A stretch of 64,000 nt of DNA from a virus (Duplodnaviria > Heunggongvirae > Uroviricota > Caudoviricetes), in the IMG/VR virus record IMGVR_UViG_3300045988_155182; one strand, given 5' to 3'. The notes under the pieces were generated by a model. It saw only the letters and a list, made by a program, of their open reading frames with translations. It was not told where the DNA came from and did not search any database. Every line of letters begins with the position of its first letter. The first letter of the stretch is position 1. The translations under genes and the position numbers were made by a program. This document shows positions 10,089 through 36,311 of this stretch, piece by piece.

Positions 10089-10670
10089 ATGGACTTCACA
10101 ATGAGTGAACAACCACGGACCATAAAAATTTATAATCTGTTGGCCGGAACCAATGAATTTATTGGTGAAGGTGATGCATATATTCCACCTCATACGGGGC
10201 TGCCAGCTTATTCTACGGATATAGCGCCACCGGATGTACCTGCTGGCTTCGTGGCCGTATTCAACAGCGAAAATAAATCATGGAGTCTCGTTGAAGACCA
10301 CAGGGGTAAAACGGTCTATGACGTGGAATCAGGGGACGCGTTGTTTATTTCTGAACTTGGGCCATTACCGGAAAATGTCACCTGGTTATCACCGGATGGG
10401 GAATATCAGAAGTGGGACGGCACATCCTGGGAGAAGGATGAGGAAACAGAAAAATTGTTTCAGGTACGGGAAGCGGAAGAAACAAAAAAAAGTCTGATGC
10501 AGGTAGCCAGCGAGCACATTGCGCCACTTCAGGATGCTGTAGATTTGGAGATTGCAACGGAGGAAGAAGCATCGTTGCTGACTGCATGGAAGAAGTATAG
10601 AGTTTTATTGAACCGCATTGACACATCAACGGCACCGGATATTGACTGGCCAACAATACCAGCAGAGTAA
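10089..10670 (+). CDS. tfa: Tail fibre assembly protein (lambda Tfa-like)
   Basis: AGAGG RBS 6 nt upstream of the ATG. Sequence [35 protein letters not shown]...[21 protein letters not shown] matches lambda Tfa as I recall it. Confidence 0.9.
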
Positions 10671-21377: not shown

Positions 21378-22696
21378 AAAAGTTGATCGCACTTAAGCAT
21401 AAGCTGGACGAAATGAAAGCTATGGGAACCAATGCAAAAAAAGAGGCATTGGCCAACATGGATGACTTCGAGCAAAGCATGGTTTCATTGATGCTCAACC
21501 CTTTCATCCGTTTTGGGGTAAAGAAATACAAAGTGGCAGAGCCGCTTAGTGAGTCCGTCCCAAGTGACGAAAAAGCCATTGATATACTGAATAAGCTGGC
21601 CTCTCGCGAGCTGACGGGGAACGCAGCAATAGCTGCTGTTGAGTCTATCGTGGCGTCAATGTGCGCCGATGGGCAGGACGTGTTCCGTCGTTTCCTCTTA
21701 AAAGATCCGAAAGCTGGCGTTGGGATTAGCCTATGCAACAAGGTTTTTGAAAATCCCATTCCGAAATTTGAGGTGCAGCTGGCGTCACCGTATAAAGAAA
21801 AAGGCGACAAATACCCCTTCAAGCCAAATCCTAAAGCCAAATGGCCGATGATTGGCAGCCTTAAGCTCGATGGTTTGCGAGTAATTTGTGAGGTTATTGT
21901 TGACGAGGAAGAGGTGAACTTCCTTTCTCGTACTGGTAATCCAATCACGTCTCTCGATCACCTAAAGCCAGCCATGCTCGAATTAGGCAAACTTTCAGGC
22001 CACAAACACATCTTCTTCGATGGTGAAGGAACAGCCGGTTCATTTAACCAGTCCGTATCTGCATTGCGCAAAAAGAACGTGCAGGCAATTGGCGCTATTT
22101 ATCATGTTTTCGACTTCTTCCTACCGGAATGGCGGGCACAGGCTAAATCCAAAGAGTATGCAAAGACAGGTATAAAGCTGAAAGAGCGCCTGGCTATGCT
22201 CGTGGCGTTGTTCAAAAACGATCGCAGTGAAGGCTACGCACAAGACATTCACCTGCATCCGTTCTACATCATCCATAGCCACGAAGACTTCATCGAACGC
22301 TTCATGAAACGCCTGGACGATAACGAAGAAGGGGAGATGGGCAAAGATCCGAACTCTGTTTACGAGTTTAAACGTACCCGCAGCTGGTGGAAGTTAAAAG
22401 ACGAAGATTCAGAAGATGGTGAAATTATCGATTTTGAGCCTGGCGACCCGGACTCTGGTTTTGCCAACACGCTTGGAAAAATTGTTATTCGTCTTGAAAA
22501 CGGCGTCATCGTTCGTGCGAGTGGCATTAAGCATAAATATCTGGACGAGATCTGGAACAACAAAGAGAAGTACCGTGGTCGTATTGTCGAGGTTCATTGT
22601 CACGAGAAAACACCTGATGGCAGCTTACGCCACCCACGACTGAAATGGCCGCGTTGCTTACGCGATACCGAAGATCGAATCGGAGATAAAGAATGA
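21374..22696 (+). CDS. ATP-dependent DNA ligase
   Basis: Adenylation motif I KLDGLR within SLKLDGLRV; ~440 aa. Confidence 0.7.
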   Translation: MKKLIALKHKLDEMKAMGTNAKKEALANMDDFEQSMVSLMLNPFIRFGVKKYKVAEPLSESVPSDEKAIDILNKLASRELTGNAAIAAVESIVASMCADGQDVFRRFLLKDPKAGVGISLCNKVFENPIPKFEVQLASPYKEKGDKYPFKPNPKAKWPMIGSLKLDGLRVICEVIVDEEEVNFLSRTGNPITSLDHLKPAMLELGKLSGHKHIFFDGEGTAGSFNQSVSALRKKNVQAIGAIYHVFDFFLPEWRAQAKSKEYAKTGIKLKERLAMLVALFKNDRSEGYAQDIHLHPFYIIHSHEDFIERFMKRLDDNEEGEMGKDPNSVYEFKRTRSWWKLKDEDSEDGEIIDFEPGDPDSGFANTLGKIVIRLENGVIVRASGIKHKYLDEIWNNKEKYRGRIVEVHCHEKTPDGSLRHPRLKWPRCLRDTEDRIGDKE

Positions 22697-22908
22697 TCGT
22701 ATTAAGTAAAAGGGAGAAAGAAACGCTTCATGAAATCAGTAAGTGGCCGGAGTTCCCTGAGTACTGGAAGCCTAAAACGCGAGCTAAGTTAGAGCGTTTA
22801 GGGTTGGTTGCAAACGTTTCTGAAACGTGGTGCTCGGCCAACTACCAGTTAACTGATAAAGGGAAAGTATTGCTACAGCAATTAGTAGAATCAGGAGTGT
22901 TAAAATGA
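22693..22908 (+). CDS. Hypothetical small protein
   Basis: ATGA-coupled to the ligase stop. Confidence 0.4.
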   Translation: MIVLSKREKETLHEISKWPEFPEYWKPKTRAKLERLGLVANVSETWCSANYQLTDKGKVLLQQLVESGVLK

Positions 22909-23057
22909 TTCCATACATCTCATTAGCTTTTATGGGTGGCTTCCTTGTCGGCTTCGGCATCTGTCGTGATTTAATTAAGCAGGAACTTAAAACCAAAACA
23001 CTGTGCATCGGAAAGCGTGTGTATCGGGTAGTTCATGAAACAAAGGTTAGAAAATGA
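22905..23057 (+). CDS. Hypothetical small membrane protein (50 aa)
   Basis: Not in the ORF track (under 60 aa). ATGA-coupled at both ends; hydrophobic core LAFMGGFLVGFGI. Confidence 0.35.
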   Translation: MIPYISLAFMGGFLVGFGICRDLIKQELKTKTLCIGKRVYRVVHETKVRK

Positions 23058-23344
23058 GCAATTTAACTTCTTGGGACTGGTGGTTGGCCACCTATTTCTT
23101 AGCGGCCGGAGTCGCATTCGCCTTTTACGTAGGTCAGTTAGTCGTAAAACTGCTGCTGATTAAATTTGCCAGTCATAAACGTATCGATGATGGTCTGTGG
23201 CGTCTTGGCACCCTGGTGGAAACTCGCTACGGGCAACTTAAGGAGAACGAAACCATTACTATCCAAGCGAAACGATTCACTGCCACCATCACAAGAACAC
23301 CTAGTCGTAGAGTGGCCTTGATCAAAAAAGTCACAACCGAATAA
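23054..23344 (+). CDS. Hypothetical membrane protein
   Basis: N-terminal hydrophobic helix WDWWLATYFLAAGVAFAFYV. Confidence 0.45.
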   Translation: MSNLTSWDWWLATYFLAAGVAFAFYVGQLVVKLLLIKFASHKRIDDGLWRLGTLVETRYGQLKENETITIQAKRFTATITRTPSRRVALIKKVTTE

Positions 23345-24122
23345 AATTACAATGATAAGTATTTACTTACTTATCTTTTATGTATAAGATGACTTTGTTT
23401 TCGTTGAGACGCGACTGTTTGAACTTAAATACAAGTGCAAACGAAGAAGTCTATCTGGCAGTAGCCTAATAAGCCAAACACCAGCGAGGTCAGTTTCCAG
23501 CCTCGTTACCGAAATGGGATACACTGAGCGAGTGTGATTACAGAACGCAGGAGGGAACATGAATGTTCCCTCCGATGAAGTAACAGAATGGGCGGTTGGT
23601 ATATTTTCAACTCCATATGACTCCCGGATTCTTAGCCACTGACCGCCCATCCTGTTACGTCATTTTGTTCAATTATGTCGTTTATACTGGGTTAAAAAGC
23701 GGCGACGTAGCCCGGCTGGTATGGTTAGCCAGCACACAACGTTGAGGCCATTACATTTTTATCAATTCTAAGGTTCTATTCACAGAGATACCGGCGAGCG
23801 TTGATATGTAACATGTTGGGCAAACATTCAATCGGAGTAGTGGCCTCAACGTTGTGAAGACAGGATTGTTGTGTAGGTTTAACCACTGTTGCCATTGGTG
23901 CCTGTTTTCACAACAAATGATTCCATACATCACATTGTATAAATTACAAAGTAGGTGCTGTCCTCAGAAACATCATCTACTTAAAGAGTTTGCCTTCTAC
24001 TATTGAGCGAAGTCGAAAGCGTCTGGCACTAACGAAAAGTGCAAGTAGCGGTGCGTTTCCTGGCAGAAACTAAACCGTCGCGATTGGCACTGTTGAGTAA
24101 TGAATACAGGCAGTGCTGAATT

Positions 24123-24197
24123 GATGGTGTAGCTCAGCGGTAGAGCAGTTGGCTGTTAACCAACTGGTCGGTGGTTCGAATCCACCCACCATCGCCA
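24123..24197 (+). tRNA. tRNA-Asn (anticodon GTT)
   Basis: Cloverleaf folded by hand: acceptor gatggtg/caccatc, D-arm gctc-agcggtag-gagc, anticodon loop ctGTTaa, T-arm ggtgg-ttcgaat-ccacc, 3' CCA encoded. Confidence 0.85.
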
Positions 24198-24199
24198 AT

Positions 24200-24275
24200 G
24201 CCGGTTTAGCTCAGTTGGTAGAGCGCCTGCCTTGTAAGCAGGATGTCAGCGGTTCGAGTCCGTTAACCGGCACCA
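24200..24275 (+). tRNA. tRNA-Thr (anticodon TGT)
   Basis: Acceptor gccggtt/aaccggc, anticodon stem cctgc/gcagg with loop ctTGTaa, T-loop ttcgagt, CCA encoded; 2 nt after tRNA-Asn. Confidence 0.85.
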
Positions 24276-24499
24276 ATACAACGATAAGATCATTACGGTT
24301 AATCGTCGTTCATGTGCACAATGACTGGTCGAAAGGTAGTGATCTTACCGTTGTGGTGGATTCGCAGACTGATGCGATAGCTTTCTTGGATGTTAGGGAA
24401 ATGCGGCCGCAAATCTTCCCTTTCGCGAGCGGTGATCGTCCGTAGTCCTAATTGGCTGCACCGTATGCCGGAGATTCAGTACCGGCCACCACAACGGCC

Positions 24500-24586
24500 G
24501 GAGAGTAGGGAGCATGGTGCTCAAGCGGTCTTGAAAACCGTCCCATTGCGCAAGCGATGATGGTTCGATTCCATTACTCTCCGCCA
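24500..24586 (+). tRNA. tRNA-Ser (anticodon TGA), class II with long variable arm
   Basis: Acceptor ggagagt/actctcc, anticodon stem gcggt/accgt with loop cttGAaa read as UGA, long variable arm, T-arm gatgg-ttcgatt-ccatt, CCA encoded. Confidence 0.7.
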
Positions 24587-24740
24587 GACACAGCGTTGAG
24601 CGGTTTGGCCTTTTAATCAACTCGATTAAGACTCCGCTAACATAAACCAGACCGCTCAACGCTGTGATAGACAATTACGGCAGACGTTCTTAACCATAGC
24701 TTGCTAACATCCTAGCAACACTTTTTTAAGCGCAAAATCC

Positions 24741-24763
24741 AAAGGGGCTTCGGCCCCTTTTTT
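24741..24763. terminator. Bidirectional rho-independent terminator (UUCG tetraloop)
   Basis: ggggc-ttcg-gcccc followed by tttttt on the plus strand; T-rich on the minus strand as well. Lies between the tRNA cluster and the convergent minus-strand ORF. Confidence 0.8.
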
Positions 24764-24764
24764 G

Positions 24765-25673
24765 TTAATGATTGCCTAGATATGATTTTAGTTCTTCTTT
24801 AATGATTAGTGAGTATTCTAAAATATCACTTAGTAAAAATTTTGCTCTGTTAAAATACCCACCAAAAGAACCTAAAATTTCAGATGGTCTTTCTAAGAGC
24901 ATCACAATATCATCTTCTTGCACTTTAGTAATGTAACTTCTAACAGCTCTTTCTCCAATAACTCTTTTCTTACCGTTTATTTCAGATTCATCTAAAACCT
25001 TATTTATAAATTTTTCTGTATCATTGAATCGTCCACTATTGTGTACTATTGTATGTCTTAGTAGTTCAATTAGCTTGATGTTAAAGCGATAGTTTTTGCC
25101 AATCTTGTTGTTTGTTTCTATCTCTTTGAAGCCAGGTATTTTATTTCTGAAAATTTTAGTTATTTTTTTCGATGGGTTACTTTTTGCTTTTAATAATCTG
25201 TAATAAACTTCCCTTTTCCCAATTTCATCATCTTCAACCTTACCAAAATCACTTGAGGACCATAAATCATTTCGAACACATACAGTATAGACATATATTG
25301 CCTCAATATAGTCTTCCAGTAACTCATAGGCTTCAGTAATAACCCACTGATATTGTTTATTTTTCAAAGTATTACACAATCTTATCTTTTCTTCTAAATC
25401 AATGGCGCTGTTACCTATCTCTAATGTTGAACCTGTATATGGGTTTGAACATAAATGGCGAGCTAACGTTGTGCCACACTTAATCTTAATAGTTTCATTA
25501 ATATTAATAATAGTATCTGGATTCTGTGCATACTCCACTTCTTTAAGAAGACGTTTTATATTTTTCTTTGTTGTATCATTTATCTGATTTAAATAGTCAA
25601 AAAGTAAAGATATTTCTTCTCTAAATTCGTTGTATTTATTTTCAATCAAAGAATCAGACAACTTACCAATCAT
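24765..25673 (-). CDS. A+T-rich hypothetical protein with HEPN-type Rx4H motif (candidate abortive-infection RNase)
   Basis: 302-aa ORF with A+T-rich codon usage unlike its neighbours; motif LLRHTIVHNSG (R-x4-H) in the C-terminal half; isolated between terminator and tRNAs. Confidence 0.5.
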   Translation of the reverse strand: MIGKLSDSLIENKYNEFREEISLLFDYLNQINDTTKKNIKRLLKEVEYAQNPDTIININETIKIKCGTTLARHLCSNPYTGSTLEIGNSAIDLEEKIRLCNTLKNKQYQWVITEAYELLEDYIEAIYVYTVCVRNDLWSSSDFGKVEDDEIGKREVYYRLLKAKSNPSKKITKIFRNKIPGFKEIETNNKIGKNYRFNIKLIELLRHTIVHNSGRFNDTEKFINKVLDESEINGKKRVIGERAVRSYITKVQEDDIVMLLERPSEILGSFGGYFNRAKFLLSDILEYSLIIKEELKSYLGNH

Positions 25674-26171: not shown

Positions 26172-26204
26172 AATGATTCCATACCTACTATGTATGGAAT
26201 CATT
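26172..26204. other. lox/dif-like recombination site candidate: 13-bp perfect inverted repeats around a 7-bp spacer
   Basis: aatgattccatac-ctactat-gtatggaatcatt, about 100 bp upstream of the tyrosine recombinase gene; half-site copies at 22904-22916 and 23916-23928. Confidence 0.5.
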
Positions 26205-26302: not shown

Positions 26303-27406
26303 ATGAAAAATAGCTTTGACAGAGCACGCGCTGCGGAGAACACCTCAAAAGAGGCGATAGAGTATCTCGAAAGAGCATCTCAAATGCAGGCCGTTATGAT
26401 CTCCCAGGTCAGCAATGACATGAGATTCTCGGACGCATTCATGTTATTCACTCGCTTATCTCTGCTGATAACCAGACGTCGGCCAGAGATCGCTGTTCAT
26501 TGTATTTTGATACATGTTTTGCCGCACATTGCCGATGTAAAAGTAAGTGACATTAATAGGTTCATGGTGAACCAACTGGTCAACCCACTAATACTGGATG
26601 GCAAAATTGTTATGGGCCGCCGCGTTTTCTCTCTGATGAAGCAGTTCCTTAGCTGGTGCGCCTTCCAGGGGATGATAGACGTGTCACCGTTGAACGATAT
26701 GTCACTTAACAAAGTTGCCGGTGGCGCAAAGCCCACACCTCGCGAGCGGAAGCTGACCGACGCAGAGGTATGGGTGTTCTGGAATATATGGGACTACTTC
26801 AATGTGTGTGCTGGTACAAAATGGGCGGCCAGGCTATGTCTTGTATCCGCAAGACGACCTGACGAAGTACTGCGGGCTAAAAAAAGTGAGTTCAATCTTA
26901 AGCGTGGGGTTTGGAATCAAGGCAAGAGGAACAAATCTGCCCGTGAGCATTCTCTGCCTTTAAGCTCATTAATGCGCACTTGTATTGAAGAGTTGTTCGA
27001 ATATGGTAAAGACAGCCAGTGGCTCGTGCCTTCGAATAAAAAAATCGGGAAAGACCTTCCTATGTCTAAAGTGGCAATAGCCCAGGCATTACGTCGTATT
27101 CTGGAACGACCAGAACTGATGGAGCTTGAGCCATTTACACCCCGAGATTTGCGCCGTACTGCGCGTAGTTACTTCCCAGCATTAGGCATAAGCCAGGAGG
27201 TATCACGTAAAATCATGAACCACAGTCTTGAGGGGATAGATCGGGTCTACGACCGGCACGATTATATGGACGAGATGCGAGACGCCTTAGAAAGTTTCTC
27301 GACGTACATCGCATCAATCGTAGAGCAACCGGATTTAGACGAAATTGACCACAAATTTAAGGGAGATCGTCTATCAACAGAGCTTATTCGTGTAAATTTT
27401 TCATAG
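26303..27406 (+). CDS. Tyrosine recombinase / integrase
   Basis: C-terminal catalytic region with RDLRRTARSY and HSLEGIDRVYDRHDY (H-x-x-R...Y pattern); start codon uncertain. Confidence 0.7.
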   Translation: MKNSFDRARAAENTSKEAIEYLERASQMQAVMISQVSNDMRFSDAFMLFTRLSLLITRRRPEIAVHCILIHVLPHIADVKVSDINRFMVNQLVNPLILDGKIVMGRRVFSLMKQFLSWCAFQGMIDVSPLNDMSLNKVAGGAKPTPRERKLTDAEVWVFWNIWDYFNVCAGTKWAARLCLVSARRPDEVLRAKKSEFNLKRGVWNQGKRNKSAREHSLPLSSLMRTCIEELFEYGKDSQWLVPSNKKIGKDLPMSKVAIAQALRRILERPELMELEPFTPRDLRRTARSYFPALGISQEVSRKIMNHSLEGIDRVYDRHDYMDEMRDALESFSTYIASIVEQPDLDEIDHKFKGDRLSTELIRVNFS

Positions 27407-31969: not shown

Positions 31970-34900
31970 ATGAAGGCACTGATGGTTCGAACTGACTTCT
32001 CACTTGGGGAGTCGGCTCTAAAAGCAGAAAACGCGGTGAAGATTGCCAGAGAAGCTGGCTACACCGCTGTAATTTCAGCAGATAGCATGAATATTGCAAG
32101 TGTTATTCCACTACAACGTGCCGCTGGTGACGACATGGCGGTTATTTGTGGTGTGAAACTAAACATTGTTGATGATCCCACATACGAGCACCGGGCTAAA
32201 CTTGCTAAAGAATCTATGAGATGTATGGAATCATTAGAGCGGGGACGTAACTACTCGTTTACCGCTCTAATTAAAAATGAGCAAGGATATCGCGACATCT
32301 GCGAACTAATGACGGCGGCCAACACACGAGAACAGTTCTACTTTGTACCGCGTCTCTCGCTCGAACAGTTGGTTTCTACATATGCCAAAGGCAACATCAT
32401 CCTGCTTACTTCCGACATCGGTAGCGTGTTCCAACGCAACGATTTTGCAAAAATCATAAGCACACTGATTACAGCGGGTGGAAAAGACAACTTCTATAGT
32501 GTGGTTTATCCGCATCCTACCCCATTCTACGACCAGATTAACGTCCGGGCGATGAAAGTCGCCAGCGCATTGAAAATAGAGCCAGTGGCGTTCTATCCCG
32601 CTTATTACGAATCGATCGACGATGCAGACATTAAAGACATTGCGCACATGGTTACGAACAACATCAAAATCGACCAGCCGCATCGTCTGCGTATCCCCCA
32701 CCAGCGAGATAACGCCGTCAATGGTCGCCGCCATCTCCTTGAGGCGCTTAAAGCCTTCTCCGTTCGCATGGATGTGCCGGTAACAGCTGCAATGGCCTCA
32801 ACAACGCAGGATACCATTATCGATGCCTGCACATGGCGCTGGCATGAATTGCCGCCAGCACTGCCAAAGATGGCAGACGACGAGCCTGCAACGCTTATGA
32901 AACTGGCTGTTGCAGGGCTGCGTAAACGTCTTACCACAAAAGAGTTTGGATACACACCACCTGCTTCAGAGAACAGGGTTTATGTTGAGCGGCTAAAGTA
33001 CGAAATGGACACGCTGACTCGCCTGGGATTTTGTGGTTACTTCCTGATGGTACGCGATCTGATGAATCATAGTCGTGAAACTGGCATTCCCGTTGGGCCT
33101 GGTCGTGGTTCCTCTGCCGGTTCTCTGGTGGCGTGGTGCATAGGCATAACCAACGTCGACCCAATCCGTCACGGTCTTCTGTTTGAGCGTTTCATCAACC
33201 CTGAGCGTCTCGACTTGCCGGATGCGGACTTGGACTTCAGCCAGGCACGTCGCCATGAGGTGATCGAGTATCTGAATGAACGCTACGGCGAAGATTACGT
33301 TGCGGGTATTCCGAACTTCACCTACCTGGGCGCAGCCTCTGCACTACGTGATACCGCTCGTATTTATGGTGTGGAGTCCGCAGATATGGCGGTATCAAAA
33401 GAACTGAAGAACGCTGAGGATGATAGCCTTCCATTGGAAGAACTGCGCGAACAACTGGCAAGTCTCGACAAATACGCAACAAAATATCCTGATGCATTCA
33501 ATGCAGCCTGCAAGTTACAAAGCCTTATGCGTGGCTTTGGTAGACATGCGGCAGGGATGATCGTAGCAGGTGTTCCTCTGACAGAACGTACACCGGTTGA
33601 GCGCCGTGGTGACGCGCGTTGTATCGCATTTGACAAGCGTTACTGCGAGGCTATGGGCCTAATTAAGCTGGACGTGCTTGGCCTGGCAACTCTCGATTTG
33701 CTCGATAGTGCAAAACGCTACATAAAAGAGAACACAGGTGAAGATATCAATCTTGATGCCATTTCTCTTGAAGATCGCAAGGTGCTGGATGGTTTTGCTG
33801 CTGGGTACACTCAAGGTGTTTTCCAGCTTGAATCAGGCCCAATGCGCAAGCTGCTTAAAGATTTAGGTGGTGGAATTGAGCCAATGAGCTTTAAAACGGT
33901 CGTCGCTACAACTGCGCTCTTCCGGCCGGGGCCAATTCAATCAGGCATGTTGGATGACTATGTTTCTGTCGCCAAAGGCTTTATGACGCCGGAATCATTA
34001 CACCCCGTTCTTGATGAACTTACCGCGGAAACAAATGGCGTGATTCTCTATCAGGAACAGACGATGAACGCGACTCGATTGCTTGCCGGCTTCACAATGG
34101 CTGAAGCTGACGCTGTGCGTTCCGCAATCGGTAAGAAGAACATGGAAAAAATGAAGAGCATGGGCGAGAAGTTCATCGTTCAGGCTCAAGCTGGCTGGAT
34201 AGACGTTGAGCTGGAAGATGGCACTACACAGCGCATTCACCGTGCGGAACATTTTAAATGCGAAGACGGAACTCTGAAAACTGTCGAAGAGGCACTTGAG
34301 CACGGCGCAAAACTACCTATAAACGCAGTACGCGTTACAGCGTCACATCCAGGGCTATCAGAGATGAAAGCGAAGGAGATCTGGACCGCATTTGAGAAAA
34401 ACGGAGCCTATCAGTTCAATAAATCACACTCCGTTGCTTATTCTTTAATCAGTTATCAGTCTATGTGGCTAAAGACGCACTACCCTGCTGAGTTCTTCGC
34501 AGCTGCGCTCACCATTCTGGGCGAGGATAAGCATCAGGGGCTGGTGAAGGATGCGCTGACCTATGGCATTCGCGTATTGCCACCAGACGTTAATGTGTCA
34601 TCTAACCGAATTGAGATCCGCACACTCGAAGACGGCAGTCAGGCACTGTATGCGCCATTCTCTGCTGTGAAAGGCTGTTCTGAAAATGGTTGTCAGGCAA
34701 TTATGCGTGCGCGTGAGAAAGTTGGTGGCAAATTCGAGTCAGTGGCACAATTCGATGAAGCGGTCGAGAAGCGTGCATGTAACAGTCGTGTACGCGAGTC
34801 GCTTCATAAAGTAGGGGCTTTTGCGTCAATTGAGCCAGGCAGTCTGCCAGCAACTGATCCTGAACGACTGCGCGACCAGGCTGAGCTGATGGGCAATCTC

Positions 34901-35516: not shown

Positions 35517-35791
35517 ATAAAGAATTATGGCGCTTGTTGAGGAAGTCACTCCTCTTACGCACTTTGTTTTGCCATGCCGGCAGTTAGCTTCTGCCTTTGA
35601 CTATTCATGCGGCAACCCCGCATTTCGCCACAATGGGCAATTCACTTTTATGGAATAAACTGGCCGTTGTGTCGATTTAATTAGCATGGCCTTACCATGC
35701 TAATTTATTCAACTTGTACAATCCTACAAATCTATCCACTCAGGCTTACACCGTCTTCGTTATTGTAGAAATGAGGATCATCAGCGTTGAA

Positions 35792-36007
35792 TCAGCTTAG
35801 AGCAACGACATTTGCTGCTGCTGGGCCTTTAGCACCATTCTCGATAGAGAATTCGACCTGCTGGCCTTCTTCCAAAGTGCGGAAATTATTACTCTGAATT
35901 GCCGAAAAATGTACAAAAACATCTTTACTGCCATCAGCAGGAGAAATAAAGCCAAAGCCTTTATCAGAGTTAAACCATTTTACTAAACCAGTCATTTTAT
36001 TAGACAT
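35792..36007 (-). CDS. cspA: Cold-shock protein (CspA family)
   Basis: [38 protein letters not shown]... closely matches E. coli CspA from memory; AAGG RBS; the track start at 36103 is an upstream in-frame extension. Confidence 0.9.
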
Positions 36008-36311
36008 AGATATTACCTTCTTAATTTTGTGAGCCACATAGTGCGGCGAGAATTTGATCTGTATAGATTGGGACTTACTTAGGCACTTAAGGAGGAGACT
36101 CACGAAGAAGGGAAATCAGAAGATAACACTGAACTGAGACTGCTTTACTAAAACTGCTTACATAAGGTCTGTCTTGCAAACCAACGATGCTATTAACGCA
36201 TACCCCTTCTTTTCATGCAACCTTTATTTTTCAAAGATAACTAATTTTTGTCACCATTGGTTTAGTAAACGTTAACGAACCAGACGATGCCAGACACCTT
36301 TACAGAGAACA

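What the first reader, a model, noticed from the sequence alone, without database searches (positions are those of the whole stretch)
23400..24122. About 700 bp of noncoding DNA upstream of the tRNAs with nested hairpins and a perfect 16-bp inverted repeat
No convincing ORF covers 23400-24120. It contains a perfect 10-bp hairpin (ggagggaaca-tgaa-tgttccctcc, about 23550-23573), a 9-bp stem enclosing about 45 nt (atgggcggt ... accgcccat, about 23588-23650), and a perfect 16-bp inverted repeat separated by 90 bp (cacaacgttgaggcca at 23735-23750, tggcctcaacgttgtg at 23841-23856), followed by the lox half-site at 23916. This could encode a structured ncRNA (tRNA-operon leader, sRNA, RNA antitoxin) or mark a recombination boundary.
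Basis: seen in the sequence. Interest (0 to 1): 0.45.

Follow-up and report, generated by a model that had tools for sequence, protein, structure and literature searches.

The report
Phage tmRNA-like RNA before tRNAs
The "empty" 700 bases upstream of this phage-plasmid's tRNA genes encode a highly structured RNA that begins with an unannotated copy of the message-like half of tmRNA, the bacterial ribosome-rescue RNA, and the same module sits in hundreds of enterobacterial phages and plasmids, including Yersinia pestis pMT1.

Summary
The hairpins are real, at slightly corrected coordinates, and far beyond chance. They are kept by compensatory base changes in 62 distinct SSU5-type phage-plasmid copies. 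Wobble pairs occur almost only on the + strand, so the folded molecule is a + strand RNA, co-oriented with the tRNAs.

The window is an SSU5-like phage-plasmid. The region is the leader of a roughly 1.37-kb stable-RNA operon: promoter, leader, tRNA-Asn, tRNA-Thr, a tRNA-shaped module, tRNA-Ser, terminator.

Its first ~160 nt (23398-23556) form a module shared with at least four other phage groups: Felix O1-like, Ackermannviridae, Klebsiella siphophages and lambdoid HK633. The module has an AUG-less 10-codon frame (GCA AAC GAA GAA GUC UAU CUG GCA GUA GCC UAA UAA, peptide ANEEVYLAVA). Its stop codon lies in a hairpin loop and covarying pseudoknots follow, as in the mRNA-like domain of tmRNA. tmRNA models hit it only below threshold. 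No tRNA-like domain is attached, so it is not a canonical tmRNA.

Function is inferred: a split tmRNA template or a decoy of trans-translation.

No record, Rfam family or paper I could search describes this RNA.

The parts
23362..23390 (+). Sigma-70-type promoter candidate: -35 TTTACT (23362-67), 17-nt spacer, -10 TAAGAT (23385-90). Inferred transcription start near 23397.
   Evidence: Sequence. The block TAAGTATTTACTTA is invariant in 7 lineages. Felix O1-like and Klebsiella phage copies carry TTGACA-17-TAAGAT/TATAGT/TAGATT at the same distance from the RNA. The Felix O1 genome paper lists a promoter TTGACA(17)TATAGT inside its tRNA region (PMC3185647). The start site is inferred, not mapped.
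23398..23556 (+). tmRNA-like coding module (the 'core'): P1, tag frame, P2, P3 with pseudoknot, P4.
   Evidence: Covariance model R1, built only from non-SSU5 phages, hits here at 73 bits, E about 1e-11, and nowhere else in the window. Sub-threshold Rfam hits: beta_tmRNA at 23427-23522 and tmRNA_permuted at 23380-23469.
23437..23472 (+). Tag-like reading frame with no start codon: GCA AAC GAA GAA GUC UAU CUG GCA GUA GCC UAA UAA, peptide ANEEVYLAVA.
   Evidence: In 174 loci (28 distinct sequences) the frame always has 10 sense codons and a stop (TAA/TAG/TGA), with no indel or internal stop. Entropy at codon positions 1/2/3 is 0.28/0.28/0.79. E. coli ssrA reads GCA AAC GAC GAA AAC UAC GCU UUA GCA GCU UAA UAA.
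23455..23484 (+). P2 hairpin (CUGG...CCAG with an inner hairpin) that presents the stop codon in its loop. Analogue of tmRNA helix 5.
   Evidence: The outer 4 bp are invariant. The inner stem is AGCC-UAAC-GGCU in most phages and degenerate in SSU5-types.
23485..23519 (+). P3 (23485-89/23501-05) plus a pseudoknot between its loop (UUCCA, 23495-99) and UGGGA (23515-19).
   Evidence: P3 is 99.8% paired and 3 of its 5 pairs show changes on both sides. The pseudoknot covaries without exception in 67 unique sequences: CCGA/UCGG, CCAA/UUGG, CCAG/CUGG, UUCCA/UGGGA, CUCCA/UGGAG. It aligns to the pseudoknot that follows the tag in beta_tmRNA.
23520..23536 (+). P4 hairpin (UACAC/GUGUG). In other phage groups its loop forms a second H-type pseudoknot after the linker AUUAAUAA.
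   Evidence: P4 is 99.8% paired and 2 of 5 pairs change on both sides. The second pseudoknot has five different helix sequences in other groups. In the window only GCG/CGC (3 bp) is possible.
23550..23573 (+).
   Evidence: 5 of 11 pairs change on both sides among 62 SSU5-type copies.
23574..23664 (+).
   Evidence: 99.6% of cells paired. Many G-C/G-U/A-U exchanges in the stem, while the loop sequence is free to vary.
23673..23733 (+). Two hairpins: 23673-82/23701-10 and 23715-20/23728-33.
   Evidence: 100% paired. One pair changes on both sides, and several pairs are G-U, which works only on the + strand.
23735..23856 (+). Predicted RNase III substrate.
   Evidence: 99.2% paired and 3 pairs change on both sides. 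Similar stems lie at 24277-24355 and 24589-24666 and directly after the core in HK633 and Klebsiella phages. Cleavage is inferred from the known preference of RNase III for about 20 bp of double-stranded RNA.
23857..23908 (+). Hairpin AAGACAGG/CCUGUUUU.
   Evidence: Covaries by eye (GGUCACGG/CCGUGGCC in Klebsiella copies). MAFFT misaligns that group, so it was not counted formally.
23916..23931 (.). Invariant in all SSU5-type copies.
   Evidence: blastn similarity to the SSU5 group ends at 23931.
24026..24117 (+). Three short hairpins: 24026-29/24039-42, 24048-51/24075-78 and 24086-92/24111-17.
   Evidence: Six pairs change on both sides.
24123..24275 (+). tRNA-Asn(GUU) 24123-24197 and tRNA-Thr(UGU) 24200-24275.
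   Evidence: ARAGORN; Rfam 75.5 and 74.9 bits.
24277..24497 (+). Long hairpin 24277-24355, then tRNA-shaped module 'M2' (24350-24497): closing stem, D-like hairpin UCGCA-GACUGA-UGCGA, variable body, T-like hairpin GCCGG...CCGGC.
   Evidence: About 216 nt that are absent from phage Cyrano. Fold. Homologous with compensatory changes to HK633 and to a Kuttervirus element that has a canonical T loop. Found next to the core in several lineages but not all.
24500..24586 (+). tRNA-Ser(UGA).
   Evidence: ARAGORN.
24589..24760 (+). 20-bp hairpin 24589-24666, then an intrinsic terminator at 24741-24760: the inferred 3' end of the operon.
26172..26204 (.). AATGATTCCATAC-CTACTAT-GTATGGAATCATT: 13-bp inverted arms with a 7-bp spacer, upstream of tyrosine-recombinase gene 26303-27406.
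   Evidence: Pfam Phage_integrase.

Best explanation
The region is the transcribed + strand leader of a stable-RNA operon running from about 23397 to about 24760. The transcript carries a ~160-nt tmRNA-like coding module, then a chain of conserved hairpins, three tRNAs, a tRNA-shaped module, and a terminator.

Shown: the RNA folds are under selection. The 5' module is shared by unrelated enterobacterial phages. It carries a conserved 10-codon frame with no AUG, whose peptide (AN-D/E-x-x-Y/F-LAVA) and surroundings match the mRNA-like domain of tmRNA: a stop codon in a hairpin loop, followed by H-type pseudoknots.

Inferred: RNase P cuts at the tRNA 5' ends and RNase III cuts in the 20-24-bp stems, releasing the modules. 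The coding module then enters the trans-translation pathway. My preferred reading is that it serves as the template half of a split tmRNA. The tRNA-like half would be supplied separately, with the M2-type tRNA-shaped RNAs as candidates. Stalled ribosomes in infected or lysogenic cells would then be rescued with a phage-specified tag. That tag keeps the N-terminal AND..Y part of the host tag but replaces the C-terminal ALAA with LAVA.
For: RNA on the + strand. Across 83 curated pairs, 99.0% of cells are paired, 16 pairs change on both sides, and 191 cells show double changes against 64 +/- 6 in shuffles (0 of 500 shuffles reach this). Structures slid by 1-3 columns pair at only 31-51%. There are 526 G-U cells against 11 A-C cells. 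The + strand folds about 20 kcal/mol better than the - strand.

Shared core. blastn finds it in 405 phage records. CM hits score 73-207 bits in 100 loci. P3 and P4 are 99.8% paired with five pairs changed on both sides. Both pseudoknots covary.

tmRNA link. Sub-threshold hits to tmRNA, beta_tmRNA and tmRNA_permuted appear in four phage groups, always placing the resume codon correctly. In the reverse direction, the best hit of R1 in the E. coli ssrA locus covers PK1, the tag and the stop. The frame is conserved with mostly third-position variation, including synonymous resume codons GCA/GCU and stops TAA/TAG/TGA.

tRNA-shaped companions. M2 has homologues in HK633 and Kuttervirus with compensatory changes.
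Against: No tRNA-like domain is attached, and none was found in the 64-kb window.

M2 lacks a G3-U70 pair and an encoded CCA. By a strict pattern it is absent from Cyrano, SSU5 and Klebsiella-type copies.

No base-pairing interface between the coding module and any partner was found (one search was uninformative).

All Rfam tmRNA scores (11-30 bits) lie below the gathering thresholds (47-84).

The second pseudoknot is not evident in the window's own copy.

Codons 7-10 lie inside the P2 helix and were partly fixed by the search pattern, so their constancy is not independent evidence.

A Y. pestis sRNA-seq study listed no RNA at the pMT1 homologue. That copy is truncated and was sampled in the plasmid state.
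Confidence: 0.45

Rival explanations
1. Untranslated tmRNA mimic. The module copies the message and pseudoknot body of tmRNA in order to bind and titrate a factor of the trans-translation pathway, such as ribosomal protein S1, SmpB or RNase R, or to occupy stalled ribosomes. This would dampen or redirect host ribosome rescue during phage growth.
For: No tRNA-like domain is attached. There is a precedent in the opposite direction: the TLD-only RNA of mycobacteriophage DS6A, and a similar molecule that strongly inhibits tmRNA in E. coli (PMC4131195; PMC11915505). P1 would pair the 5' end with codons 2-4 of the frame, which would hide the resume codon.
Against: A decoy does not need an intact frame. 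The variation is concentrated at third codon positions, residues 3-4 stay acidic or amide, residue 6 stays aromatic, and a stop codon is always kept, including switches among TAA, TAG and TGA. All of this points to selection on the peptide.
Confidence: 0.2
2. Processing and stability leader only. The hairpins exist to direct RNase III, RNase E and RNase P processing and to protect the tRNA precursor. The tmRNA-like part is a decaying relic of an ancestral phage tmRNA with no present function.
For: The region lies directly upstream of tRNAs in four of five phage groups. Stems of 20 bp follow each tRNA 3' end. Parts downstream of about 23860 are dispensable in pMT1 and in copies carrying Tn3.
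Against: The first 160 nt are nearly invariant across lineages whose other non-coding DNA is 60-80% identical. The module is kept, with compensatory changes and an intact frame, in phages as different as Felix O1-like, Ackermannviridae, lambdoid and siphoviruses. In Felix O1-like phages it has its own strong promoter in the middle of the tRNA array. In HK633 no tRNA follows it.
Confidence: 0.17
3. DNA-level element. The inverted repeats act as cruciforms, recombinase sites, a replication origin or cassette boundaries, rather than as RNA.
For: The 15-mer at 23917 is an exact arm of the recombinase site. It occurs 5 times against 0.21 expected. The homology break with the SSU5 group falls at 23931. 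Cargo insertions occur nearby. The region sits among replication genes.
Against: G-U pairs outnumber A-C pairs 526 to 11. That is the signature of one folded + strand, not of duplex DNA or a cruciform. The core occurs in non-replication contexts in other phages. Hairpin loops vary freely while stems covary. The recombinase motif explains only 16 bp.
Confidence: 0.05
4. Protein-coding after all: the antisense 90-aa ORF (23378-23650) or small sense ORFs are the real genes.
For: The antisense frame is open across the core in the 40 SSU5-type sequences. ORFs of 56-86 aa start at similar places in several lineages.
Against: All six frames carry stops in the 60 homologous cores from other phage groups. 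The Klebsiella copy has no comparable ORF, and indels between lineages are mostly not multiples of three. Substitutions track helix partners.
Confidence: 0.03

Closest known systems
tmRNA (SsrA), standard one-piece form (Rfam RF00023)
   Same: An AUG-less frame starts at an Ala resume codon and has the same length and pattern as the host tag (E. coli ANDENYALAA, window ANEEVYLAVA, both followed by UAA UAA). The stop codon lies in a hairpin loop, as in helix 5. H-type pseudoknots follow the frame. Model positions 83-140 align to it.
   Different: There is no tRNA-like domain: no acceptor stem, T arm, CCA or G3-U70. Scores are 11-12 bits against a gathering score of 47. The tag ends in LAVA rather than ALAA. 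Only two pseudoknots follow the frame, and no PK1 was demonstrated. The RNA is transcribed from its own promoter directly into the module.
Two-piece (circularly permuted) tmRNA of beta- and alpha-proteobacteria and cyanobacteria (RF01850, RF04321)
   Same: These give the best Rfam similarity. The context AUAAAU|GCAAACGA, the tag, the stop, and the next pseudoknot with linker GCCUCGUUACCGAAA all align. The idea that the message part and the acceptor part can be separate RNAs comes from this form.
   Different: In permuted genes both pieces come from one precursor, and the coding piece contributes the 5' acceptor strand. Here no acceptor strand and no upstream acceptor piece exist. Scores are 13-30 bits against 47-84.
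TLD-only tmRNA-like RNA of mycobacteriophage DS6A, and full tmRNAs of Bxz1-like mycobacteriophages and Bacillus phage G
   Same: These are phage-borne tmRNA derivatives. DS6A shows that a phage can carry just one half of tmRNA (PMC4131195; PMC11915505).
   Different: DS6A keeps the tRNA-like half and lacks the frame. This RNA keeps the frame and lacks the tRNA-like half. None of the published lists includes enterobacterial phages or plasmids.
Phage T4 stable RNAs rnaC and rnaD (species 1 and 2)
   Same: Stable non-tRNA RNAs encoded inside a phage tRNA cluster and co-transcribed with the tRNAs.
   Different: No sequence or structure match: R1 finds nothing in the T4 locus at E <= 10.
GOLLD and ROOL large ornate RNAs
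   Same: Large (about 600-800 nt), intricately structured phage-associated RNAs that are often adjacent to tRNA genes (PMC12286853).
   Different: No Rfam match at E <= 10. The host range differs (Lactobacillales, rumen and lake bacteria). Here the 5' module has a recognisable relative, tmRNA.
Cre-lox type tyrosine-recombinase core sites
   Same: 26172-26204 has 13-bp inverted arms around a 7-bp spacer beside a tyrosine-recombinase gene. 23916-23928 repeats one arm exactly.
   Different: The sequence is unrelated to loxP. At 23916 only one good arm is present; the opposite arm matches at 6 of 13 positions by eye. No recombination was tested.

Membership tests
tmRNA (any gene form) | tRNA-like domain: 7-bp acceptor stem with G3-U70, T arm, 3' CCA | tested here: not met
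   ARAGORN reports no tmRNA in the window or in relatives. Rfam at E <= 10 finds only true tRNAs in 23560-24780, and no TLD hit in the whole window. A protein-coding gene lies just upstream of the predicted promoter. The other ~46 kb of the ~110-kb plasmid was not examined.
tmRNA (any gene form) | Tag reading frame without a start codon, beginning at a resume codon (usually Ala GCA) and ending in a hydrophobic Ala-rich C-terminus plus a stop | tested here: met
   GCA...GCC UAA UAA at 23437-23472. All 28 distinct versions from 174 loci are intact, third-position variation dominates, and the peptide is AN[DE][END]x[YF]LAVA. The C-terminus is LAVA, not ALAA.
tmRNA (any gene form) | Stop codon presented in the helix 5 hairpin, with pseudoknots after the frame | tested here: met
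   UAA lies in the loop of the inner P2 hairpin. The P3 pseudoknot covaries in 67 of 67 unique sequences. The second pseudoknot covaries in other groups but is inconclusive in the window.
tmRNA (any gene form) | Pseudoknot PK1 shortly upstream of the resume codon | tested here: inconclusive
   The P1 region is too conserved to show covariation. Only a hairpin is predicted.
tmRNA (any gene form) | Score at or above the Rfam gathering threshold | tested here: not met
   11-30 bits against 47 (RF00023, RF04321) or 84 (RF01850).
tmRNA (any gene form) | Aminoacylation, SmpB binding, and tagging of stalled nascent chains | not testable with these tools
   Needs biochemistry or proteomics. Published surveys found no smpB on phages or plasmids apart from pOAD2 (PMC4131195).
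GOLLD / ROOL | Match to the family covariance model | tested here: not met
   No hit at E <= 10 in 22500-25500 or in 23560-24780.
T4 rnaC / rnaD | Sequence and structure similarity to the T4 stable RNAs | tested here: not met
   R1 finds nothing in the T4 tRNA locus at E <= 10.
RNase III processing stems | About 20 bp or more of nearly perfect double-stranded RNA | tested here: met
   Stems of 20-24 bp at 23574-23664, 23735-23856, 24277-24355 and 24589-24666. Cleavage itself cannot be tested here.
loxP (phage P1) | Arm ATAACTTCGTATA in inverted pairs around an 8-bp spacer | tested here: not met
   The only match near the site has 3 mismatches (23929-41). Across the window there are 30 such matches against 16 expected, and none is paired.
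Tyrosine-recombinase core site of this element | Two inverted recombinase-binding arms around a 6-8-bp spacer | tested here: not met
   At 23916 only one exact arm is present. The full site is at 26172-26204.
Type III antitoxin RNA / regulatory sRNA | Tandem ~36-nt repeats next to a toxin gene, or a seed region with a target | tested here: not met
   No tandem direct repeats. No toxin gene among the neighbours scanned. sRNA targets were not searched.

The most novel reading that the evidence does not exclude
Enterobacterial phages and SSU5-type phage-plasmids, including pMT1 and pHCM2-like plasmids, encode a split tmRNA. The message-and-pseudoknot half and a tRNA-shaped half are separate genes within the phage tRNA operon. 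Together, or with host SmpB, they would rescue stalled ribosomes with a phage-specified tag, AN..(Y/F)LAVA. This tag keeps the SspB-binding part of the host tag but alters the ClpX degron. The phage would thereby control both ribosome recycling and the fate of truncated proteins in the infected cell.
Probability: 0.3. Interest if true: 0.92.

Novelty: new variant of a known kind. Interest (0 to 1): 0.8.

Why it matters
tmRNA is regarded as an almost universal, chromosomally encoded bacterial RNA. The published lists of phage copies that I could read cover only mycobacteriophages and Bacillus phage G.

Here a derivative that keeps the tag frame but lacks the tRNA-like domain sits unannotated in widely used and medically relevant genomes:
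- Felix O1-type and Vi1-like (Ackermannviridae) therapeutic phages.
- Klebsiella phages.
- A lambdoid phage (HK633).
- SSU5-type phage-plasmids, found in 246 of 5,426 complete E. coli genomes and in 773 PLSDB plasmids, including Y. pestis pMT1.

If the frame is translated, phages reprogram ribosome rescue and protein tagging. If it is a decoy, phages inhibit rescue. Either way this gives a direct handle on why phages carry translation-related RNAs next to their tRNAs.

The question is immediately testable in E. coli and Salmonella. The module also deserves a covariance-model family so that annotation pipelines stop leaving these regions blank.

Tried and rejected
1. Y RNA / Ro idea. It was prompted by a DUF2828 'RNA-binding protein' upstream of the Michonne tRNA array. 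No such protein lies among the window's neighbours, and the only YrlA hit sits on the tRNAs themselves.

2. GOLLD and ROOL: no model hits.

3. T4 rnaC and rnaD: no homology.

4. Cis-acting antitermination leader (put or boxA type). This is unlikely because the module lies in the middle of Felix O1-like arrays with its own promoter, and lies downstream of Q-modified pR' in HK633.

5. RNA-primed replication origin. The module's genomic context is not conserved across phage groups.

6. Yersinia sRNA-seq. The pMT1 sRNAs listed lie elsewhere (98104-98193 and 105828-105915), so this gives no expression evidence.

7. Pas sRNAs of lambdoid prophages. These sit next to capsid and tail genes and are unrelated.

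8. Catalogue of 10,006 viral structured-RNA candidates. Nothing specific could be retrieved.

9. Genome contigs pattern scan. Of 38 matches, 35 are not the RNA; only Buttiauxella, Kluyvera and Pseudocitrobacter are real.

10. The long-range closing helix predicted by RNAalifold (23395-23411 with 24020-24044). The covarying local hairpin 24026-29/24039-42 contradicts its outer part, so I did not adopt it.

11. RNAduplex search for an interface between the core and M2: uninformative.

12. Literature search for the tag peptide strings: only noise.

13. A sense ORF from ATG 23389 that runs in frame into the tag. The ATG and the frame are not conserved: there are 1-2-nt indels upstream of the resume codon.
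Full report
**Context.** The window is an SSU5-type phage-plasmid. The region 23345-24122 is 98.6% identical to Escherichia phages Cyrano and CMS-2020a and 100% identical to an E. coli plasmid. It lies between a 96-aa ORF (23054-23344) and tRNA-Asn (24123), tRNA-Thr (24200) and tRNA-Ser (24500), all on the + strand. Neighbouring genes encode a DnaB-like helicase, a primase, a ligase, CobT- and CobS-like proteins, DNA polymerase III alpha and a tyrosine recombinase. None of the GenBank, RefSeq or PLSDB records that I opened or that were listed annotates a gene in the region.

**Observation.** The three inverted repeats are present. They are 23550-60/23563-73 (11 bp), 23575-96/23642-63 (22-nt arms, 91% complementary) and 23735-54/23837-56 (20-nt arms with a perfect 16-bp core and 82 nt between). 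No perfect stem of 16 bp or more occurred in 200 dinucleotide shuffles. The only other 16-bp perfect stem in the 64 kb lies in the same operon, at 24589-24666. The + strand RNA folds at -246.4 kcal/mol, z = -7.2. The reverse strand folds at -226.9 kcal/mol.

**Conservation and strand.** The region is homologous in 773 PLSDB plasmids from Klebsiella, Escherichia, Enterobacter, Yersinia pestis (pMT1), Salmonella, Citrobacter and Cronobacter. It is also in 246 of 5,426 complete E. coli genomes, almost always on plasmids.
- I aligned 62 distinct full-length copies of 629-744 nt (A2).
- A curated set of 83 base pairs in 8 helices is 99.0% paired.
- 16 pairs change on both sides.
- 191 cells show double changes against 64 +/- 6 in shuffles (0 of 500 shuffles reach this).
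- Structures slid by 1-3 columns pair at only 31-51%.
- G-U pairs outnumber A-C mismatches 526 to 11. The folded molecule is therefore the + strand, as expected for an RNA co-transcribed with the tRNAs and not for a DNA cruciform.
- A candidate promoter (TTTACT-17-TAAGAT, 23362-90) is conserved. Relatives carry a consensus-like TTGACA-17-TATAGT at the same position. The Felix O1 genome paper lists that promoter.
- An intrinsic terminator lies at 24741-60.
- Coding is unlikely.

**A core shared with unrelated phages.** Window 23385-23550 matches 405 phage records.
- In Felix O1-like Ounavirinae it lies inside the tRNA arrays, on the tRNA strand.
- In Klebsiella siphophages such as VLCpiS13d it lies upstream of tRNA-Met.
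- In Ackermannviridae it lies upstream of tRNA-Met (SKML-39; Mooltan).
- In lambdoid HK633 it lies in the late-operon leader downstream of pR'.

A covariance model built only from non-SSU5 sequences (R1) finds the window copy at 23398-23556 (73 bits) and 100 of 100 loci tested. In the model-based alignment, helices P3 and P4 are 99.8% paired, with five pairs changed on both sides.

Two H-type pseudoknots are supported by covariation.
- The P3 loop pairs with the segment just 5' of P4. The variants are CCGA/UCGG, CCAA/UUGG, CCAG/CUGG, UUCCA/UGGGA and CUCCA/UGGAG, with no exception in 67 unique sequences.
- The P4 loop pairs after a conserved AUUAAUAA linker. Five different helix sequences are seen. 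This second pseudoknot is not evident in SSU5-type copies, including the window.

**Identity of the core.** Rfam has no family for it at threshold. However, permissive scans of four phage groups gave consistent sub-threshold hits to tmRNA models exactly on the core.
- RF00023 model positions 83-140, which cover the tag frame and helix 5.
- tmRNA_permuted, up to 29.9 bits.
- For the window itself, beta_tmRNA positions 217-304 (E = 0.027) and tmRNA_permuted (E = 0.13).

The alignment runs from AUAAAU|GCAAACGA through the tag and the stop and into the next pseudoknot with its linker (GCCUCGUUACCGAAA). In the reverse direction, the best hit of R1 in the E. coli ssrA locus covers PK1, the tag and the stop.

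The window reads GCA AAC GAA GAA GUC UAU CUG GCA GUA GCC UAA UAA (ANEEVYLAVA). E. coli ssrA reads GCA AAC GAC GAA AAC UAC GCU UUA GCA GCU UAA UAA (ANDENYALAA).

In 174 loci (28 distinct sequences) the frame is always 10 codons plus a stop, with no indel. Entropy at codon positions 1/2/3 is 0.28/0.28/0.79. There are fourteen peptides, all AN[DE][END]x[YF]LAVA. A Kuttervirus copy uses synonymous GCU and AAU. The stop codon sits in the loop of the inner P2 hairpin, like tmRNA helix 5. There is no conserved start codon or frame upstream. One caveat applies: codons 7-10 lie in the P2 helix and were partly fixed by the retrieval pattern.

**What is missing.** No tRNA-like domain is attached or found in the window, so this is not a canonical tmRNA. 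Surveys by the tmRNA database authors list phage tmRNAs only for Bxz1-like mycobacteriophages, Bacillus phage G and the TLD-only DS6A. They found no smpB on phages or plasmids other than pOAD2.

The operon does contain tRNA-shaped RNAs that the tRNA finders do not call. M2 (24350-24497) has a closing stem, a D-like hairpin, a variable body and a T-like hairpin. It is homologous, with compensatory changes, to elements in HK633 and in Kuttervirus Mooltan. The Mooltan element has a canonical UUCGAAU T loop. M2-like elements accompany the core in many lineages but not all, and they lack G3-U70.

**Mechanism.**
- Shown: a conserved, + strand, highly structured RNA whose 5' module is a tmRNA-type message domain under selection at both the structural and the codon level.
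- Inferred from established RNase P and RNase III specificity: the precursor is cut at the tRNA 5' ends and within the 20-24-bp stems.
- Inferred from the codon-level selection: the frame is, or recently was, translated. Without a start codon that implies trans-translation with a separate tRNA-like partner.
- The main alternative is an untranslated mimic that titrates components of the rescue pathway.
- From my own knowledge of the E. coli tag: SspB reads the N-terminal AANDENY part and ClpX reads the C-terminal LAA. A paper I checked confirms that ...LVA ends are good ClpX degrons. It gave no data on ...AVA.

**DNA-level motif.** AATGATTCCATACATC (23916-31) is invariant in all SSU5-type copies. 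It repeats one arm of the site AATGATTCCATAC-CTACTAT-GTATGGAATCATT (26172-26204), which lies upstream of the recombinase gene. The 15-mer occurs five times against 0.21 expected. blastn similarity to the SSU5 group ends at 23931. Relatives carry foreign DNA at various points in the region: the caf operon in pMT1 after the 23735-23856 hairpin, Tn3 near 23680, and a ~330-nt insertion near 23545. The 'recombination boundary' idea therefore has some support for this one motif, but not for the hairpins.

**Verdict.** The interpretation as a structured RNA is right but incomplete. The notable result is an unannotated, widely distributed tmRNA-like coding module in enterobacterial phages and phage-plasmids.

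Noticed in passing
window 26172-26204, 22905-22919, 32220-32234: A lox/dif-like site (13-bp inverted arms, 7-bp spacer) lies about 100 bp upstream of the tyrosine-recombinase gene. Exact single arms of it occur at the start codon of a 50-aa ORF (22905) and inside the DNA polymerase III alpha gene (32220, - strand).
   Followed up: partly
window 24276-24499: About 216 nt between tRNA-Thr and tRNA-Ser are absent from the otherwise 98.6%-identical phage Cyrano. The segment holds a long hairpin and a tRNA-shaped module (M2) that recurs in lambdoid HK633, Klebsiella phages and Kuttervirus.
   Followed up: partly
E. coli chromosome NZ_LR778147.1 1705873-1705905, matching window 23723-23755: A 33-nt stretch annotated as CRISPR is 100% identical to the RNA region. 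An E. coli strain therefore carries a spacer against this phage-plasmid family.
   Followed up: no
window 10432-10630 (+): Strong Rfam hit to IS009 (RF02111, 189.6 bits).
   Followed up: no
window 35767-36185 (-): Strong Rfam hit to the cspA thermoregulator 5' UTR (RF01766, 187.6 bits). This implies a cold-shock-protein gene with its RNA thermosensor on the phage-plasmid.
   Followed up: no
L005 (Y. pestis pMT1 NC_004835) locus 2007-2924: The F1 capsule regulator caf1R abuts the truncated RNA region directly after the 23735-23856-type hairpin. The caf island was therefore inserted into this stable-RNA operon and replaced its tRNA.
   Followed up: partly
L003 (Citrobacter phage Michonne) 2797-2917 and 3062-3165: Two unannotated tRNA-like elements just downstream of the core, each with a T arm, an acceptor stem and GCCA, and with unusually long bodies.
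   Followed up: no
L107 (Salmonella phage SKML-39) 1758-1826: A mini tRNA-like RNA (acceptor stem, D arm, a 3-bp stub in place of the anticodon arm, canonical T arm) lies immediately upstream of the core's promoter. ARAGORN and Rfam do not call it.
   Followed up: partly
L084 (IMG/VR contig) within the core, equivalent to window ~23545: A ~330-nt insertion flanked by a TGCAG duplication interrupts the RNA just after P4. It looks like a small mobile element.
   Followed up: no
Genome-contig loci L175-L212: The 19-base pattern also matches 35 unrelated bacterial contigs, several per genus (for example Noviherbaspirillum, Pseudohongiella and Lentisphaeria). These lack the RNA by the covariance model. 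They are probably a conserved coding sequence or chance matches.
   Followed up: partly
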